Of a DNA stretch of 64,000 nt, positions 6,770 to 12,155 are shown piece by piece. The position numbers and the translations under genes were made by a program. The stretch lies in sequence record MK327931.1; one strand, 5' to 3'. The notes beneath the pieces are model-generated. The model saw only the letters and a program-made list of their open reading frames with translations, made no database searches and had not been told where the DNA came from. The DNA comes from Escherichia phage vB_EcoM_G17. Numbering within the stretch: position 1 is the first letter of the stretch; each line of letters begins with the position of its first letter.

Positions 6770-7039
6770 TTATAAAAATGTTAAATCTTCAGTACTTAAT
6801 TGTGATAATTTACCATCATATTCTATTTCAACATATACATCTTGGTCATAAACAGCAACTACACGTTTAATAACTCCAACCTTCACGACATTCTTTTTGT
6901 AGTTGAACTCAACTGAACAACCAATAAGTTTATTTGATAGAATCTCACGTATTTGATTTGCATGGTCTTTTAGGATAGAATTAATAGATTTTTTCATAAT
7001 ATATCTATCATTCAAATATTTTTTAACTACATCATGCAT
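6770..7039 (-). CDS. small hypothetical protein (KYxGKxV-like family)
   Basis: 89 aa; 'NKLIGCSVEF' fits the motif seen in several ~90-aa paralogues. Confidence 0.45.
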   Translation of the reverse strand: MHDVVKKYLNDRYIMKKSINSILKDHANQIREILSNKLIGCSVEFNYKKNVVKVGVIKRVVAVYDQDVYVEIEYDGKLSQLSTEDLTFL

Positions 7040-7044
7040 AATTA

Positions 7045-7803
7045 TTACCTTTTGAAACGATTGAATGAGTACTCATCTTTTTCTTTACGTAAGTATCTCA
7101 TCCCACCACTTTGTGGAGTAGCGAGAGTTAAGTCACCCGTCAAGAACTGACTATCAATCCAAATGCGATTACCGTAAATGAGTGGGTCTGTAACTGCTGT
7201 ATGTCCACTAAAGACACAATGCACTCCATCTAACTTAGGTGCATAATATGTATTATTAGTTCTACAATAATCGAATGTTTTTCTATCCCACAAGCACTTA
7301 TCAATTATATCAGCACTAAGTGATTTTGTCCCATTAACAAATCGTTCCCATGTTGTATATTCCAACGGAACTCCAGCATGAACTAACCCAATCTTCAATC
7401 CTCGGTGATTGATTTGGATAATCATAGGGAGATCCTTTAAGTACTGACGAAAGAATTGAATGCCTGTTCCTCCAACTTCATCAAGGAATTTATCACCACC
7501 ATTACTTATCCAACAATGATACCAATCTCGAAGTGTTTCCGAATCAACGCACATCATCTCATGATTACCCGCAATCATGTAACGATTTTCTCCGAACAAA
7601 AATTCAAAAAGGAGCTTTGAATTTTGTTCTCCACGGTCGATAATATCACCTACACTGAAAACATAATCATTGTGTGTAATACCAAATTCTTTCACTGTAG
7701 CATCCCATAGTTTACCATTACCATGCAAATCACCTACAATGTATAAATCTTTATCATCAGGTACAGTTACTTCTAAGAAGTGTTTCATTATTACTCCAAC
7801 CAT
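7045..7803 (-). CDS. PPP-family Ser/Thr phosphatase-like metallophosphoesterase
   Basis: Motifs 'GDLHGN', 'GDIIDRGEQ', 'GNHEMM' (GDxHG / GDxxDRG / GNHE). Confidence 0.75.
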   Translation of the reverse strand: MVGVIMKHFLEVTVPDDKDLYIVGDLHGNGKLWDATVKEFGITHNDYVFSVGDIIDRGEQNSKLLFEFLFGENRYMIAGNHEMMCVDSETLRDWYHCWISNGGDKFLDEVGGTGIQFFRQYLKDLPMIIQINHRGLKIGLVHAGVPLEYTTWERFVNGTKSLSADIIDKCLWDRKTFDYCRTNNTYYAPKLDGVHCVFSGHTAVTDPLIYGNRIWIDSQFLTGDLTLATPQSGGMRYLRKEKDEYSFNRFKR

Positions 7804-8042
7804 ATAATATTAGTGTGTTTAGTAACTTGTGTTCCAGCAAAAGAACCATCTTTAAGATAAGTATTAATTTTAAAACGCCATTCACCACCACTAATATACA
7901 TATCAGTAATAATATACTTTCCATACCCTCTGGAGTTTATTAATCGTACTTCTTGACCAATATATTTTGGCTTCAGATCATTTATAAAATCATCAGCCAA
8001 AGACATAAGATATCGCAAATGTGATAAGTCAGTGTTGAACAT
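7791..8042 (-). CDS. small hypothetical protein (KYxGKxV-like family)
   Basis: 83 aa; 'KPKYIGQEVRL'. Confidence 0.45.
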   Translation of the reverse strand: MFNTDLSHLRYLMSLADDFINDLKPKYIGQEVRLINSRGYGKYIITDMYISGGEWRFKINTYLKDGSFAGTQVTKHTNIIWLE

Positions 8043-8257
8043 TATTTCTTTCTCTTATATTTGTTAATAATATCTTGGGTAAGTGAAATAAAAATATATA
8101 CTAATGTTACAGGCCAAATAATAGCCATCAGTGCTGCTGTTTGGAGATTCATGATAATCATGATTTCATCTTTAAAACAACCCCAATTAAGTACTAGAAA
8201 GTTGGTTATAAATGTAACAAATGCTACAAAACCATATATTGCAAAAAATGTTATCAT
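8042..8257 (-). CDS. small membrane protein
   Basis: 71 aa; two hydrophobic helices. Confidence 0.45.
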   Translation of the reverse strand: MITFFAIYGFVAFVTFITNFLVLNWGCFKDEIMIIMNLQTAALMAIIWPVTLVYIFISLTQDIINKYKRKK

Positions 8258-8259
8258 AA

Positions 8260-8589
8260 TTATTCCTCATCATCCACTAAAACAAGATAATCCAAACTTA
8301 ACTCGGTATCTATGTAACAATCACAATTCAAGTACTCAATTTCAGCACCTATAGTTCTCCCATTCTTAAATATCTCAATGATTTTCATTCTAGTATTGGG
8401 ATTAATGTGTTCAATGTCGTATTCGTATTCAGGGTCAATATACTCACTTGTCATACGTTTGATGTATTGTTCCGAATATCGTACAGTTTTACCTATAAGA
8501 TCATTACTCAACGTCTGATAAAAATCATCTTGAATTTTGAATAATGACCTATAAAAAATATTATGTTGAATTAGTGGTTTCATTGACAT
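8260..8589 (-). CDS. small hypothetical protein (KYxGKxV-like family)
   Basis: 109 aa; 'NDLIGKTVRY'. Confidence 0.45.
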   Translation of the reverse strand: MSMKPLIQHNIFYRSLFKIQDDFYQTLSNDLIGKTVRYSEQYIKRMTSEYIDPEYEYDIEHINPNTRMKIIEIFKNGRTIGAEIEYLNCDCYIDTELSLDYLVLVDDEE

Positions 8590-9230
8590 TAATCACAACT
8601 TCCAGACGATGAACTTGAATCAGAACTAGAGCTATCATAGGAACAAGAATCAGAGGAAGAACTGCTGTGACGGCTATAATCACTGTAATCATCATTGTTG
8701 TAGATTGGTGATGTTACGATTGCTGCTGCGGTCGCTGCCGTTGCAATTTGTGCAGTATGGTCATGAACACCTAGTTGTGGTTCATCCTTAGATTTACCTT
8801 TGTTCTTACCTTTAGTGTAACGAGCTTTCTTTGCAGTTTTAGTATTTTTCTGTACTTTAGGAGCTTTTGGTTTCACATCTTCAACGACTGGAACTACATT
8901 CACTACAACTTTAGGATCAGTTTCTTCAAGTGTATTATACACTTTAACTTGCATTTGAACTTCAACTTCTTTAACTTCTTCTTTAACTTCTTCTTTAACT
9001 TCTGGAATAACTGTTTCTGGTGCTGGAGTGATTTTATCAAGTTCTTTAGTAATAAAGAAGCTTGTATTTTTCTCACCTAGCATAACAAGAAGACCAATGG
9101 CAATCACTGGACTTAGTACTGTACCAAGTACTACATAACCTAGAACACTTCGGTTATAGTTATATGCAAGCATACCAGAAATAATAATACCGATTACATA
9201 TGCACTGCTAAGAATAATTGGGGTTAACAT
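8589..9230 (-). CDS. membrane-anchored protein with EVKEEVK repeats and Ser/Asp-rich tail
   Basis: 213 aa; N-terminal TM segments, 'EVKEEVKEEVKEVE', basic patch, C-terminus 'SSSSSDSCSYDSSSSDSSSSSGSCD'. Confidence 0.55.
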   Translation of the reverse strand: MLTPIILSSAYVIGIIISGMLAYNYNRSVLGYVVLGTVLSPVIAIGLLVMLGEKNTSFFITKELDKITPAPETVIPEVKEEVKEEVKEVEVQMQVKVYNTLEETDPKVVVNVVPVVEDVKPKAPKVQKNTKTAKKARYTKGKNKGKSKDEPQLGVHDHTAQIATAATAAAIVTSPIYNNDDYSDYSRHSSSSSDSCSYDSSSSDSSSSSGSCD

Positions 9231-9534
9231 ATTCTACTCCTTTGTATATAAATTTACTAACTTCTTCGATGTATAAAGACAACCCTGAACGTTCATTTAG
9301 AACTAACCAAGCACCAAAACCACATCGAATCTCGGATATATGAAACTCTTCTACACTATAAATTGAATACGCGTTAAATGGACATATTTCATCAGATATA
9401 CTTACCACATAGTTATTATTAATTGAATCTAACACCTGGGTATTGTATAAATTATTAGTACTGAAAATCTGCATTAACGAGCTAGAAAGCATCTCGGTTG
9501 TCTTTTCTAATATTGTTAAAAACGAACCATTCAC
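9208..9534 (-). CDS. hypothetical protein (108 aa)
   Basis: Minus-strand ORF. Confidence 0.4.
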   Translation of the reverse strand: MNGSFLTILEKTTEMLSSSLMQIFSTNNLYNTQVLDSINNNYVVSISDEICPFNAYSIYSVEEFHISEIRCGFGAWLVLNERSGLSLYIEEVSKFIYKGVEYVNPNYS

Positions 9535-9591
9535 TTCAACTTCTCCCTATTGGTGATGTAATCAAATTATATCACCGAATTCTGATACGTC

Positions 9592-9897
9592 TCATGATAT
9601 TCGCATTTCATCTATATATAATGAACATGATTCAGAATTATCGTCTAAACTTAAACCTAAATCGACCATCAAACCGCAATGCGTTCCCCAGAATTTCTTT
9701 ATGTATAGTTTTTTGCTATTATTACCTAAATCATAAACATATTCATTTTTAAATATACTTTTTAATTCTTCACATATACATTTTATTATCTTCATTACTT
9801 GATTATGATATTCGTATGGTATTCCATCAAGTTCGTTAATTATTAATGCAAAACCATCATCATAGTACTTAAGTTTATTGAATGTTTGTATATCCAT
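9592..9897 (-). CDS. hypothetical protein (101 aa)
   Basis: Minus-strand ORF. Confidence 0.45.
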   Translation of the reverse strand: MDIQTFNKLKYYDDGFALIINELDGIPYEYHNQVMKIIKCICEELKSIFKNEYVYDLGNNSKKLYIKKFWGTHCGLMVDLGLSLDDNSESCSLYIDEMRIS

Positions 9898-10194
9898 TTA
9901 ATATATAATCTCACTAGCTTCTATTGTGTAGACACCATCATCAGTCATTAATCTAACTGCAACTTTAATATTATTAGACATTCGTGTAACTATCAATCCA
10001 ATAATTACACCATTCTTTAAAGTACCGTTATGGTATCTTACTTGTACTTTAGTTTTGTTATCAATTAGGTATCTTCGAATTTGATGAATTTCAGTTCTAA
10101 ACAGTTCTAAATAAACTTCACTATATTCCTTATCTGAACCGTCTGAACACCAGTACAATAAATTTACTTGTTCAAATAATTTTTTTATATTCAT
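9898..10194 (-). CDS. small hypothetical protein (98 aa)
   Basis: Minus-strand ORF abutting its neighbour. Confidence 0.45.
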   Translation of the reverse strand: MNIKKLFEQVNLLYWCSDGSDKEYSEVYLELFRTEIHQIRRYLIDNKTKVQVRYHNGTLKNGVIIGLIVTRMSNNIKVAVRLMTDDGVYTIEASEIIY

Positions 10195-10550
10195 AAAAAT
10201 CTCACAGATTTAATATTACTGGTTACATGATTTACCCAAGTGTTATCGAACTTGTAAACAATTGTATTAAGTGATTTATGAAAATTAACCTCGCACACTA
10301 ATGCCTTGGAACCATTGATTGTACAGACCGTGGATGGTAAGTTGTTTGCTAATATCTCTTTTTCATCTAAACATAGTGAACTAATACAATCATAATAGAG
10401 AGGTTCAAGAACTTTTTCAGTACTGAGAAATTCAAAAGAAAGATCATCTATTAGTTTTATGTAATCGAATAAATTATGATAATATTCATTCATTGCAGAT
10501 CCTTTTAAATTTAGCATTATTAGAATATGTATATGAATGACCGAAATCAT
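10191..10550 (-). CDS. hypothetical protein (119 aa)
   Basis: Minus-strand ORF; 4-nt overlap downstream. Confidence 0.4.
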   Translation of the reverse strand: MISVIHIHILIMLNLKGSAMNEYYHNLFDYIKLIDDLSFEFLSTEKVLEPLYYDCISSLCLDEKEILANNLPSTVCTINGSKALVCEVNFHKSLNTIVYKFDNTWVNHVTSNIKSVRFL

Positions 10551-10740
10551 TTACACCATGTACATTTAGTACACCGTCACTGAAATAAATTCGATCAATA
10601 GTGAGTTCACGTTTATAATCCCAATCATCATACCAGCACAGAACACGAATACCTTTGTACTTTGTAGTTAAATCATTTTCTAATATAGTCAAGTAATCAA
10701 TATGACTTTTGAATATCTCTAAGTCCTGCTCAAACATCAT
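10486..10740 (-). CDS. small hypothetical protein (KYxGKxV-like family)
   Basis: 84 aa; 'TKYKGIRVLCW'. Confidence 0.4.
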   Translation of the reverse strand: MMFEQDLEIFKSHIDYLTILENDLTTKYKGIRVLCWYDDWDYKRELTIDRIYFSDGVLNVHGVNDFGHSYTYSNNAKFKRICNE

Positions 10741-10997
10741 TGTTCCTCGTATAATTCTATATCATCAACACCAACTTGGCGAATTGCAGTACTTCTGTTG
10801 AATGTATTTTTTTCAAACAAACATACTGTTAAACGTATTTCACACTTCAATGCACTATAATAAATCATATCAATAACACCATATGTTTCATACATTTCTA
10901 CGTATACATTTCGACCTAAATACTTTTCTTCTAAATCAGTAATTAGACTATTGATAAGATTACCTATCTGTGTTATATCTGTGTGAAATTTATCCAT
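10737..10997 (-). CDS. small hypothetical protein (KYxGKxV-like family)
   Basis: 86 aa; 'EKYLGRNVYV'. Confidence 0.45.
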   Translation of the reverse strand: MDKFHTDITQIGNLINSLITDLEEKYLGRNVYVEMYETYGVIDMIYYSALKCEIRLTVCLFEKNTFNRSTAIRQVGVDDIELYEEQ

Positions 10998-11185
10998 TAT
11001 AATAAACCTCTCACATAAAACATTGATGAAAATAGATAATCATCAGTACTGGAATTTAGTAGTTTATCAAAACTATAATTTTTATGCTTATTTTCATACA
11101 AAGACAATCTATAGTATCGTTCTATATTTTCTAAGTAGTCTTTTTGTAATAACATCTGTGTTGTTACATTCACTATAATGTACCT

Positions 11186-11220
11186 TAAAAGAAAAAGGGA
11201 CCAATATATGATCCCTTTTG
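11186..11220 (-). terminator. rho-independent terminator downstream of polynucleotide kinase gene
   Basis: Stem AAGGGA / TCCCTT (11195-11200 / 11212-11217); T-run follows on minus strand (plus 11191-11196 A-run). Confidence 0.5.
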
Positions 11221-11222
11221 TA

Positions 11223-12155
11223 TTAGAAATTTCCTTCAGCCACTTGGAAAACTTTCAACCCAAGTAGCTTACGCCACATGAATACAACTTGATCGCGGTC
11301 ATCATATACCTTTTTAACATCGTAATGATCAACCACATTTTTCATGTACAGGTCGAATTTTACAACATCATCAGGACGTTTATCATCGATATCTCGCATA
11401 AACAATGCATCGTAAGGAACACCCCAATTCTTAAGCCACTGTTCGGTATCAGCACGACACCCTTCAGTACGCCCACTCATGACGATAATCTTGCGTTTAT
11501 GAAAAACTGCTTCAGCGATAATAGACAAAATAACTTCTTCATCAGGTGTATCCTGAAGAACAGTACTTTCATCGTAAGGATTACGACCCCATTTATGAGC
11601 AAGAGTTCCATCGATATCAACGATGATAGCAGCTTCGCGTGAATTACCATAGTAACCAATGTGTAATGCCTTACTATAATAGTACGTATCTGCCATTGTG
11701 TCAATGATATCATCTTGTACTGAACGCTCACGCTGGAGGTTATATTTCTTACAAAGTTTTACGAACTCTTTAATCTTAAAGAATTCATGAACATCTGCAC
11801 CACGGTCTTCATTAGGTACAAAATCATCATAGAAGTTCTTTTCTTTGTAATCATAACCATTATCTTTAGCCCATACTTTCCAGAGATTACGGAAATGTTG
11901 TTTAAGGTTTGTATCGGATATGATGATGTTCCAACCATTCTCTGCTGCTGAATTTGCTGCACTGAACTGTAAATTAGTTACGTACTGCTCATTAGCATCG
12001 TTGAATTTGTAAGCATCATGTGACCCAGCCATAGATTCACGAATATCATCACGGTTGATGTTGATAGTCTTGGATTTGGCATTTTTAATTTCTTGAACTG
12101 CCCATGTGGTTTTACCACACCCAGGTAATCCAACTGTTAGTGTAATAGTTGGCAT
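11223..12155 (-). CDS. pseT: polynucleotide 5'-kinase / 3'-phosphatase (T4 PseT-like)
   Basis: 310 aa; N-terminal P-loop 'GLPGCGKTT'; C-terminal HAD motif 'IVDIDGTLA'. Confidence 0.85.
   Translation of the reverse strand: MPTITLTVGLPGCGKTTWAVQEIKNAKSKTININRDDIRESMAGSHDAYKFNDANEQYVTNLQFSAANSAAENGWNIIISDTNLKQHFRNLWKVWAKDNGYDYKEKNFYDDFVPNEDRGADVHEFFKIKEFVKLCKKYNLQRERSVQDDIIDTMADTYYYSKALHIGYYGNSREAAIIVDIDGTLAHKWGRNPYDESTVLQDTPDEEVILSIIAEAVFHKRKIIVMSGRTEGCRADTEQWLKNWGVPYDALFMRDIDDKRPDDVVKFDLYMKNVVDHYDVKKVYDDRDQVVFMWRKLLGLKVFQVAEGNF

What the first reader, a model, noticed from the sequence alone, without database searches (positions are those of the whole stretch)
8589..9230. Membrane-anchored protein with 'EVKEEVK' repeats and a poly-Ser/Asp tail
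Two N-terminal TM helices are followed by a tandem EVKEEVKEEVK repeat, a basic segment and an extreme C-terminal run 'SSSSSDSCSYDSSSSDSSSSSGSCD'. This composition is unusual for phage early proteins. The encoding repeats may also be length-variable.
Basis: seen in the sequence. Interest (0 to 1): 0.35.

Follow-up and report, generated by a model that had tools for sequence, protein, structure and literature searches.

The report
Jumbo-phage membrane protein with disordered tail
This is a real, conserved but uncharacterised gene of E. coli/Klebsiella jumbo phages: a two-helix membrane anchor carrying a long floppy tail that has a fast-changing 4-amino-acid repeat and a strongly conserved serine/aspartate-rich end. 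It is somewhat curious but not surprising, and its function is unknown.

Summary
Window 8589-9230 (minus strand) is a 213-aa ORF, identical to Sharanji_gp509 ('hypothetical'). It has two strong TM helices, then a perfect 12-bp x3.2 array encoding (EVKE)3, a +13 basic block, a short Ala/Thr helix, and a Ser/Asp/Cys tail.

The tail is not an artefact. It has the lowest dN/dS in the gene (0.02-0.17), uses all six Ser codons, and ends in ...SYDSxSxDSSSSS..SCD in two phage genera and a metagenomic lineage.

EVKE copy number runs from 1 to 4 among isolates that differ by only 1-2 SNPs in 2.4 kb, and the 1-copy state arose twice.

The 2-TM hairpin is a widespread module with no Pfam model (PHROGs 9201/25625). 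It occurs alone as ~50-aa proteins, including one in the same gene block of an Erwinia jumbo phage. The ~160-aa disordered tail is a lineage-specific addition.

The protein is absent from the phAPEC6 virion proteome. A conserved sigma70-type extended -10 element lies upstream.

No homolog has a known function. My best reading is an early, inner-membrane, cytoplasm-facing tethered disordered protein whose conserved C-terminal peptide is the working end. The repeat is neutral slippage in a spacer. Interest is low to moderate.

The parts
8589..9230 (-). Complete ORF (213 aa plus stop), identical to Sharanji_gp509 / WNN14790.1. It belongs to phrog_29057.
9237..9243 (-). Shine-Dalgarno sequence AAAGGAG, with 6 nt between it and the ATG
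   Evidence: read directly from the sequence
9162..9221 (-). TM helix 1 (aa 4-23)
   Evidence: KD 2.0; AF2 helix 3-25
9147..9161 (-). Short inter-helix loop NYNRS (aa 24-28). This is the signature N-R-S motif of the widespread 2-TM module; R27 is nearly invariant in 28 homologs.
9075..9146 (-). TM helix 2 (aa 29-52), carrying the conserved ...LS..SP.I...LL.LG motif. P41 is invariant.
   Evidence: KD 2.6
8850..9035 (-). Acidic spacer (aa 66-127), 71% P/E/V/K and predicted disordered. Its sequence is poorly conserved between clades.
8966..9003 (-). Perfect 12-bp tandem array (unit AAGTTAAAGAAG on the coding strand) encoding (EVKE)3. Copy number is 1-4 among isolates.
8787..8876 (-). Polybasic block (aa 119-148, net +13) containing the conserved KKARYTKGKNKGK motif
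8700..8759 (-). Ala/Thr-rich weakly hydrophobic segment (aa 158-177). AF2 models a helix at 158-171. KD is 1.07, too low and the segment too short for a standard TM helix. It is absent in the distant relative P0014.
8592..8699 (-). Ser/Asp/Tyr/Cys-rich tail (aa 178-213). It has the lowest dN/dS in the gene.
8592..8642 (-). Most conserved C-terminal peptide, SYDSSSSDSSSSSGSCD-COOH (aa 197-213). Y198, D199, S200, S202, S205, S209, S211 and D213 are invariant across the Asteriusvirus, Alcyoneusvirus and metagenomic relatives.
8587..8591 (-). TAATG: the stop codon overlaps the ATG of the downstream gene gp508, consistent with translational coupling
9566..9595 (-). Sigma70-like promoter candidate with an extended -10 (ATGAGA-18-TGaTATAAT), in the 57-nt gap upstream of gp510/gp509. 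Its core is conserved in diverged clades.

Best explanation
This is a non-structural, probably early-expressed inner-membrane protein of RaK2-like jumbo phages, and it is built from two parts.

Part 1 is an ancient 2-TM helical hairpin of about 50 aa, with the motif A..NRS..G[YW]..LS..SP.I..LL.LG. It also exists as a free-standing mini-protein in many phages and bacteria. Here it inserts with both ends in the cytoplasm.

Part 2 is a lineage-specific, intrinsically disordered cytoplasmic extension of about 160 aa, organised in charge blocks. First comes an acidic P/E/V/K-rich spacer whose sequence and length are free to drift. Next is a polybasic patch that would lie on the anionic membrane surface or bind nucleic acid. 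A short Ala-rich helix follows. Last is an invariant Ser/Asp-rich C-terminal peptide, which is the working end: a docking or modification site that holds a partner at the membrane.

The EVKE repeat is a recent, perfect 12-bp array inside the spacer. It expands and contracts by replication slippage in 4-aa steps, probably without functional consequence.

Shown here: the ORF, the TM hairpin, predicted disorder, the conservation pattern, repeat instability and absence from virions. Inferred: the topology, early expression, the spacer role, and that the tail works as a linear binding or modification motif. The partner is unknown.
For: - ORF and features.
- Purifying selection is strongest on the tail and relaxed on the acidic spacer. 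Tail dN/dS is 0.02-0.17; spacer dN/dS is 0.66 vs JNE01 and 1.3 vs A4.
- The architecture and the terminal SYDSxSxDSSSSS..SCD are kept in Asteriusvirus clades down to A4, in Klebsiella Alcyoneusvirus and in a metagenomic lineage, while the middle is rewritten.
- AF2 gives only the hairpin and one short helix. All else is below pLDDT 50.
- Topology: K/R count is 1-2 in the loop against 2-4 just after TM2, plus a +13 block. Muenster's annotation carries a TMHMM N-in/C-in note. Homologous hairpins are followed directly by zinc ribbons, which are cytoplasmic domains.
- The module stands alone elsewhere: 48-60-aa proteins, RB49/JSE 114-aa proteins, and a 55-aa protein in the same block of an Erwinia jumbo phage.
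- Not in virions: the phAPEC6 MS table has no gp366c.
- Expression signals: SD sequence, TAATG coupling, and a conserved extended -10 element.
- Repeat dynamics: 3, 4 and 2 copies in isolates 1-2 SNPs apart, 1 vs 2 copies at 1 SNP apart, and two independent 1-copy lineages. The array is degenerate in UE-S1 and in the WPEC3 clade.
Against: - No homolog of any part has an assigned function (Pfam, NCBIfam, PADLOC, PHROGs, PDB), so the mechanism rests on anatomy alone.
- Topology is not proven. Across the wider module family the loop is itself quite basic (57 K/R in loops against 78 after TM2 in 28 proteins). No dedicated topology predictor was run here.
- Promoter-like sites in the region are not more frequent than in shuffles (42 vs 36.6 +/- 5.2). 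Only the conservation of one site supports it.
- The Cys residues of the tail are not invariant (P0007 has none, P0006 has one), so a metal- or disulfide-based role is not general.
- Absence from one virion proteome is a weak negative for a small membrane protein with few tryptic peptides in its tail.
Confidence: 0.5

Rival explanations
1. Periplasm-facing envelope protein (N-out/C-out). The P/E/V/K spacer followed by a K-rich stretch would act like the TonB/TolA proline/charge-rich rod and carry the Ser/Asp tail across the periplasm. Its role could be superinfection exclusion (blocking DNA entry, as T4 Imm or Sp do) or contacting peptidoglycan or the outer membrane. The two tail Cys residues could form a disulfide.
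For: In many homologs the hairpin loop carries the conserved basic residue(s), 2-3 K/R in 8 residues, which by the positive-inside rule could put the loop in the cytoplasm. An acidic-then-basic spacer resembles the TonB linker (my own knowledge of TonB; composition). Small 2-TM phage proteins expressed early are classic exclusion factors (established knowledge of T4 Imm).
Against: Within the jumbo-phage clade the loop has only 1-2 K/R, against 2-4 right after TM2, and a +13 block would have to be exported. The TMHMM note on the Muenster ortholog says N-in/C-in. Zinc-ribbon fusions to the same module imply a cytoplasmic C-terminus. Pfam Imm_superinfect gives no hit even at E<=1. The tail Cys residues are not conserved.
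Confidence: 0.2
2. Membrane tether for phage nucleic acid. The polybasic block binds DNA or RNA and fixes replication, repair or transcription complexes to the inner membrane, in the way phi29 p16.7 does. The acidic tail would act as an intramolecular competitor that regulates the basic patch.
For: There is a +13 block with the conserved KKARYTKGKNKGK motif. The gene lies in a conserved block with DNA ligase, RNA ligase, PseT-like kinase/phosphatase and, in Muenster, peptidyl-tRNA hydrolase. The predicted orientation is cytoplasmic. The protein is non-structural.
Against: There is no recognisable DNA-binding fold, and the region is predicted disordered. In A4 and Muenster the basic block is rewritten as K/T-rich sequence with dN/dS above 1 vs A4, so it is less constrained than the tail. 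The block is collinear across the whole lineage, so neighbourhood carries little weight. Polybasic stretches next to a membrane more often bind acidic lipids (general knowledge).
Confidence: 0.12
3. Holin, antiholin or lysis-timing protein of the class II type: two TM helices, N-in/C-in, and a charged cytoplasmic C-terminus.
For: The 2-TM N-in/C-in prediction and a highly charged C-terminal region fit. Stand-alone hairpins of 48-60 aa are holin-sized.
Against: No endolysin or spanin lies within +/-4 kb, and the neighbours are ligases, a phosphatase and small hypotheticals. The 160-aa tail is far longer than holin tails. No holin family matches in Pfam or PHROGs. The candidate promoter is sigma70/early-type. 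The fEgEco12 genome paper states that holin and lysozyme genes were identified but gives no locations in the passage read (PMC13070987), and GenBank labels the fEgEco12 feature under this protein's match 'hypothetical protein' (H57).
Confidence: 0.06
4. The tail is a substrate or pseudosubstrate dock for the co-conserved lambda-PP/NinI-like Ser/Thr phosphatase (window 7045-7803). The protein would then be a membrane-targeting or regulatory partner of that enzyme.
For: The tail is a 36-aa run of Ser interspersed with phosphomimetic Asp, and it is the most constrained part of the gene. The membrane protein lies 0-5 small genes upstream of the phosphatase in all four lineages examined: Sharanji/A4/JNE01, Muenster and the SRR22590157 contig.
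Against: The whole block is collinear, so the proximity is not specific. The phosphatase occurs in 781 phage records against about 45 for this protein. The Erwinia jumbo phage has the phosphatase with only the tail-less hairpin nearby. No phage Ser/Thr kinase was identified here, and E. coli has few.
Confidence: 0.08

Closest known systems
phrog_29057 (orthologs such as 121Q gp451, PBECO4 AGC34797, phAPEC6 gp366c and Muenster gp172 'putative membrane protein')
   Same: Full-length match at E 1.8e-142. Same architecture, and the same position in the PseT...phosphatase...DNA-ligase block.
   Different: Nothing differs apart from EVKE copy number. The family itself has no known function.
Stand-alone 2-TM mini-proteins (phrog_9201, phrog_25625, phrog_8436; RB49p211 / JSE_00218; Erwinia phage pEa_SNUABM_49 gene 00081)
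   Same: They share the hairpin with the A..NRS..G[YW]..LS..SP.I..LL.LG motif. HMM E-values run from 1e-4 to 1e-8.
   Different: They are 48-120 aa with no tail or with unrelated tails (zinc ribbons, short helical segments). None is characterised, and no Pfam model exists.
Titin PEVK segments and the TonB Pro/Glu-Pro/Lys spacer
   Same: Composition only. The spacer is 71% P/E/V/K, has an acidic stretch followed by a basic stretch, is predicted disordered and tolerates length change. The comparison with titin and TonB rests on my own knowledge.
   Different: There is no sequence homology. TonB has a single TM helix, a periplasmic orientation and a folded C-terminal domain. Here there are two TM helices, a probably cytoplasmic orientation and no folded domain.
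phi29 p16.7 (early, membrane-anchored DNA-binding organiser of replication)
   Same: The resemblance is functional only: an early-type, non-virion, N-terminally anchored protein with a charged cytoplasmic part in a DNA-metabolism region.
   Different: p16.7 has one TM helix, a coiled coil and a folded DNA-binding domain. No homology was tested or expected. DNA binding here is purely hypothetical.
Ser-Asp-rich low-complexity regions (staphylococcal Sdr/Clf SD repeats; dentin phosphophoryn DSS repeats)
   Same: S/D-dominated composition.
   Different: Those are long, regular dipeptide or tripeptide DNA-level repeats in secreted proteins, and they are glycosylated or phosphorylated. This tail is short (36 aa), irregular, encoded with mixed codons, C-terminal and position-specifically conserved.
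Pfam DUF7206 (PF23836) and phrog_13684
   Same: Weak similarity of the C-terminal ~85 aa. DUF7206 scores 19-21 bits on the WPEC3-clade proteins. phrog_13684 scores E 4e-5 on the window protein.
   Different: The Pfam scores are below the gathering score of 25.6, and the window protein itself gives no Pfam hit. The similarity may be compositional. Both families have unknown function.

Membership tests
phrog_29057 (orthologous group of Asteriusvirus membrane proteins) | Full-length profile match | tested here: met
   E 1.8e-142, residues 1-213 against profile positions 1-209 of 209
2-TM hairpin module (phrog_9201 / phrog_25625) | Profile match over the hairpin, with the conserved A22, R27, P41 and G52 positions | tested here: met
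   E 1e-7 and 3e-7. All 28 aligned homologs hit phrog_9201.
Pfam DUF7206 (PF23836) | Score at or above the gathering threshold (25.6 bits) | tested here: not met
   No hit for the window protein at E<=1. Clade relatives score 18.7-20.7 bits.
T4 Imm-type superinfection immunity protein (Pfam Imm_superinfect) | Match to the Pfam model | tested here: not met
   A Pfam scan at E<=1 returned no families. No member of A3 hit it at E<=0.01.
T4 Imm-type superinfection immunity protein (Pfam Imm_superinfect) | Blocks DNA injection by superinfecting phage | not testable with these tools
   Needs an exclusion assay
Class II holin | Two TM helices, N-in/C-in, small size (about 65-100 aa) with a short charged C-terminus | tested here: not met
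   The TM number and predicted topology fit. However, the protein is 213 aa with a 160-aa tail, well outside that size range.
Class II holin | Location in a lysis cassette next to an endolysin or spanin | tested here: not met
   The neighbours within +/-4 kb are ligases, a phosphatase and small hypotheticals
TonB family | Single N-terminal TM helix, periplasmic Pro-rich spacer and a folded C-terminal TonB domain | tested here: not met
   Two TM helices, no TonB_C Pfam hit, no folded C-terminal domain
Coding VNTR (in-frame slippage-prone tandem repeat) | Perfect short tandem DNA repeat whose copy number differs among otherwise near-identical genomes | tested here: met
   12 bp x3.2 at 100% identity. 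Copy numbers of 1-4 at 1-2 SNPs of flanking divergence, with homoplasy.
Phase-variable contingency locus | Repeat changes switch the reading frame or promoter on and off | tested here: not met
   The unit is 12 bp, and all observed variants stay in frame, including a 3-bp variant in CRJP21
Virion structural protein | Detected in purified particles | tested here: not met
   Ortholog gp366c is absent from the 62-protein phAPEC6 virion proteome table (PMC7247149)

The most novel reading that the evidence does not exclude
The invariant Ser/Asp-rich C-terminal peptide is a phospho-acceptor or pseudosubstrate that docks the neighbouring lambda-PP-like phage Ser/Thr phosphatase (or a host kinase or phosphatase) at the inner membrane. 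An ancient stand-alone hairpin mini-protein would then have been converted, in the E. coli/Klebsiella jumbo-phage lineage, into a membrane-targeting regulatory subunit. The slippage-prone EVKE array would give the population a range of tether lengths.
Probability: 0.08. Interest if true: 0.6.

Novelty: new member of a known kind. Interest (0 to 1): 0.27.

Why it matters
About 80% of jumbo-phage genes have no known function. This gene is a cleanly delimited example whose anatomy points to direct experiments: topology fusions, tail-peptide pull-downs, and tail or hairpin deletions.

Two points have some general use. First, the N-terminal hairpin is a widespread module with no Pfam model, found alone or fused to other domains in many phages and bacteria, and it deserves a family definition. 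Second, the EVKE array changes faster than single-nucleotide differences accumulate, so it is a convenient typing marker for otherwise near-identical Asteriusvirus isolates. It also shows that the spacer tolerates changes in length.

Nothing here overturns current understanding.

Tried and rejected
- **Library scans.** Pfam, NCBIfam and PADLOC scans of the protein gave nothing significant. The best NCBIfam hit was 16 bits against a cut-off of 126.
- **C-terminal profile search.** A profile of the C-terminal half alone (A5) against the 5.8-billion-protein set failed. Ser-rich words saturated the 8,000-candidate limit and nothing scored, not even family members. I therefore could not establish whether the tail module exists outside this family. 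The phrog_13684 and DUF7206 similarities remain weak and possibly compositional.
- **PDB profile search.** It returned only compositional hits to an S/T-rich segment of Mycoplasma Mgp-operon protein 3 (E about 0.01-0.03) and a weaker one to ribosomal protein L27 (E 0.55).
- **Structure comparison.** I did not run it. The AF2 model has mean pLDDT 48 and pTM 0.17, so any match would be meaningless.
- **Paralogs.** The family HMM found no paralog of the protein in the window.
- **RiPP or microcin-like precursor, or a metal or disulfide site.** Rejected. The tail has only 0-2 Cys and they are not conserved. No maturation enzymes are adjacent. The peptide is attached to a membrane protein.
- **Third TM helix at 159-177.** Rejected as a general feature. 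KD is 1.07, the AF2 helix is about 14 residues, and the segment is absent from P0014.
- **Obligate link to the phosphatase.** Rejected on distribution: 781 records against about 45.
- **Literature.** No paper mentions this gene. The Sharanji, phAPEC6 and fEgEco12 papers have nothing on it. 'DUF7206' returns no papers, and no Asteriusvirus transcriptome exists.
Full report
**What is there.** Window 8000-10000 is 100% identical to Escherichia phage Sharanji (OR545507.1, genus Asteriusvirus, 350 kb jumbo myovirus). The finding's coordinates coincide exactly with a minus-strand ORF, 8589..9230, 213 aa, annotated as Sharanji_gp509 'hypothetical protein'.
- Two strongly hydrophobic segments at residues 4-23 and 29-52, with Kyte-Doolittle 19-residue means of 2.0 and 2.6.
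- EVKEEVKEEVKE, encoded by a perfect 12-bp x3.2 tandem array at 8966-9003.
- A block of 13 K/R and no acidic residues at 119-148.
- A 36-residue tail with 19 Ser, 7 Asp, 3 Tyr and 2 Cys.

The array is the only 100%-identical tandem repeat among five repeat loci in the 64 kb window. No other stop-free segment in the window is comparably S/D-rich.

**The gene and its tail are real.** AAAGGAG lies 6 nt before the ATG. The TAA stop overlaps the ATG of the next gene (TAATG), and the gene's start overlaps the upstream gene by 23 nt. Nei-Gojobori dN/dS against progressively diverged orthologs is 0.19 (UE-S1), 0.28 (WPEC3) and 0.18 (JNE01) for the whole gene. For the tail alone it is 0.02, 0.17 and 0.11. 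Against UE-S1 the tail has 8 synonymous changes and 1 non-synonymous change. The 19 tail serines use all six Ser codons interleaved. The poly-Ser character is therefore maintained at the protein level and is not a DNA repeat. This disposes of the 'out-of-frame artefact' possibility.

**Repeat variability.** An alignment of ten orthologs shows the EVKE unit in 1, 2, 3 or 4 copies, plus a 3-bp variant in CRJP21. The rest of the protein is 99-100% identical in the seven closest isolates; the three more diverged orthologs are 66-88% identical. The tblastn match lengths give this distribution:

| Copies | Records |
|---|---|
| 1 | SD-6_S16, phAPEC6 |
| 2 | 14 records |
| 3 | Sharanji, slurp01 |
| 3, with one Glu codon deleted | CRJP21 |
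| 4 | BF17 |

. I compared copy number with SNP distances in 2,377 ungapped flanking columns from 13 isolates:
- Sharanji (3 copies), BF17 (4) and E9.1 (2) differ by only 1-2 SNPs.
- phAPEC6 (1) and UB (2) differ by one SNP.
- The two 1-copy isolates are 25 SNPs apart on different branches.

The array therefore changes faster than point substitutions accumulate, and it does so recurrently. All variants stay in frame, so this is length variation and not phase variation. In UE-S1 and the WPEC3 clade the units are degenerate. The perfect array is thus a recent feature of one clade. Because it sits in the least constrained part of the protein, I read it as neutral slippage.

**Family and anatomy.** tblastn finds the protein only in Asteriusvirus phages (35 records). 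The 5.8-billion-protein search finds 12 clusters. A profile search of 1.84 billion representatives adds three distant full-length relatives. One of these is the ortholog in the Klebsiella RaK2/K64-1/Muenster group (Alcyoneusvirus). Another comes from a metagenomic contig.

Across all of them the order of parts is kept: hairpin, acidic E/V/P-rich stretch, K-rich stretch, usually a short Ala/Thr-rich hydrophobic helix, and a terminal ...SYDSxSxDSSSSS..SCD. The middle is essentially rewritten between lineages. In the C-terminal alignment the invariant positions are Y198, D199, S200, S202, S205, S209, S211 and D213. The Cys residues are not invariant. AlphaFold2 with the family alignment gives helices at 3-25, 29-67 and 158-171, and pLDDT below 50 elsewhere. 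Residues 66-127 are 71% P/E/V/K. That composition recalls titin PEVK segments and the TonB spacer, but this is a recollection and not a homology claim.

**The hairpin is an independent module.** About 24 further profile hits are proteins of 48-165 aa that match only residues 4-62. They share the motif A..NRS..G[YW]..LS..SP.I..LL.LG. Several continue directly into zinc ribbons. One cluster is the 114-aa RB49p211/JSE_00218 protein of T4-like Krischvirus, which explains the 'phage JSE' note in the phAPEC6 annotation. No Pfam model covers the module. It corresponds to PHROGs 9201, 25625 and 8436, all of unknown function. In Erwinia jumbo phage pEa_SNUABM_49 (Eneladusvirus) the module is a stand-alone 55-aa gene about 3 kb upstream of the phosphatase. 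The disordered tail is therefore an addition specific to the Escherichia/Klebsiella jumbo-phage lineages.

**Topology.** In the jumbo-phage clade the inter-helix loop has 1-2 K/R, the 15 residues after TM2 have 2-4, and a +13 block follows. The Muenster annotators recorded 'TMHMM: 2 TMDs; N-in, C-in'. Zinc-ribbon fusions also argue for a cytoplasmic C-terminus. Across the wider module family the loop is itself rather basic (57 against 78 K/R in 28 proteins). I therefore treat N-in/C-in as favoured, not established.

**Expression class and context.** The ortholog gp366c is not among the 62 proteins of the phAPEC6 virion proteome (PMC7247149). Promoter-like matches in the region are no more frequent than in shuffles. 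One of them, however, is an extended -10 element (TGATATAAT) in the 57-nt gap upstream of gp510/gp509. It is perfectly conserved in UE-S1 and in the 78%-identical WPEC3 clade while its surroundings diverge. Muenster has TTGAAT-17-TGaTATAGT directly upstream of its ortholog. This is moderate support for host-RNA-polymerase (early-type) transcription. No transcriptome exists for the genus.

The gene sits in a collinear block of many small genes between a PseT-like kinase/phosphatase and RNA ligase on one side and a Ser/Thr phosphatase and DNA ligase on the other. This holds in Sharanji, A4, JNE01, Muenster and the metagenomic contig. The phosphatase lies 0-5 genes downstream in each. That proximity is part of general collinearity, and the phosphatase is far more widespread: 781 phage records against about 45.

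**Interpretation.** I commit to the following, at about 0.5 confidence. The protein is an early, non-structural inner-membrane protein. An old, self-sufficient hairpin tethers a cytoplasmic, disordered, charge-blocked extension, and the invariant Ser/Asp C-terminal peptide is a linear docking or modification motif. The acidic P/E/V/K stretch is a length-tolerant spacer, and the polybasic block sits on acidic lipids or nucleic acid. The partner is unknown. Rival readings:

| Rival | Confidence |
|---|---|
| Periplasmic orientation with an exclusion or envelope role | 0.2 |
| Nucleic-acid tether like phi29 p16.7 | 0.12 |
| Docking partner of the neighbouring phosphatase | 0.08 |
| Holin-type lysis protein | 0.06 |

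**Verdict.** The object is an uncharacterised but ordinary kind of phage gene: a small membrane protein with a low-complexity tail, already annotated as hypothetical in GenBank. Interest is modest. The most useful outputs are a delimited, experimentally tractable architecture, recognition of a widespread hairpin module that has no Pfam model, and a fast-evolving in-frame VNTR usable as a strain marker.

Noticed in passing
L014:601-1280 (Klebsiella phage RaK2, JQ513383.1 293393-294072): The RaK2 ortholog is annotated as two ORFs (ORF480/ORF481). RaK2 has A10 where Muenster and K64-1 have A9 in a homopolymer run. This is most likely a sequencing error, so the gene is probably intact.
   Followed up: partly
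window 9566-9595 (minus strand): A promoter-like element with an extended -10 (TTCGGTGATATAAT) lies in the 57-nt gap upstream of gp510/gp509. Its core is identical in UE-S1 and in the ~78%-identical WPEC3 clade while the flanks diverge. Muenster has a comparable TTGAAT-17-TGaTATAGT.
   Followed up: partly
L022:370-537 (Erwinia phage pEa_SNUABM_49, Eneladusvirus): A stand-alone 55-aa version of the 2-TM module (family HMM E 3.5e-8) lies in the same gene block, about 3 kb upstream of that phage's phosphatase. This implies the long tail was added, or lost, at lineage level.
   Followed up: yes
window 6770-11000 (minus-strand small genes gp504-gp515): Several 83-109-aa neighbours are weakly similar to each other (gp506-gp515 E 4e-4; gp506-gp508 and gp506-gp514 E about 0.01, in a 12-protein database). 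They may be a diverged paralog family of small early proteins.
   Followed up: partly
window 9732-9794: An imperfect 21-bp tandem repeat (3 copies, 74-85% match) lies inside gp511. Its variability among isolates was not examined.
   Followed up: no
L004:461-790 (phage CRJP21, WIL00704.1) and H25 (fEgEco12): These look like mis-transferred product names. CRJP21 labels the 109-aa gp508 ortholog 'putative serine/threonine protein phosphatase', whereas the real phosphatase is the 252-aa gene at window 7045-7803. fEgEco12 labels small neighbours 'Nop10' and 'SAM-dependent 2'-O-MTase domain-containing protein'.
   Followed up: no
about window 8861 and 8417: These are the other in-frame indels in the 2.4-kb region. 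UE-S1 has an 18-bp insertion (QRSKKT) inside the basic block of the target gene, and SP27 has a 6-bp insertion in gp508.
   Followed up: partly
window 11193-11219 (minus strand): A strong terminator-like hairpin (11-bp stem followed by a T-run) lies just upstream of the small-gene run that includes the target. A near-consensus promoter-like site (TTGACA-17-TATTAT) lies at 11676-11704.
   Followed up: no
whole window: Window position 8000 maps to Sharanji record position 311630, so the window end extrapolates to about 367,630, beyond the 350,079-bp record. The window may cross the record's end or terminal repeat, or come from a different permutation. Only 8000-10000 was compared.
   Followed up: no
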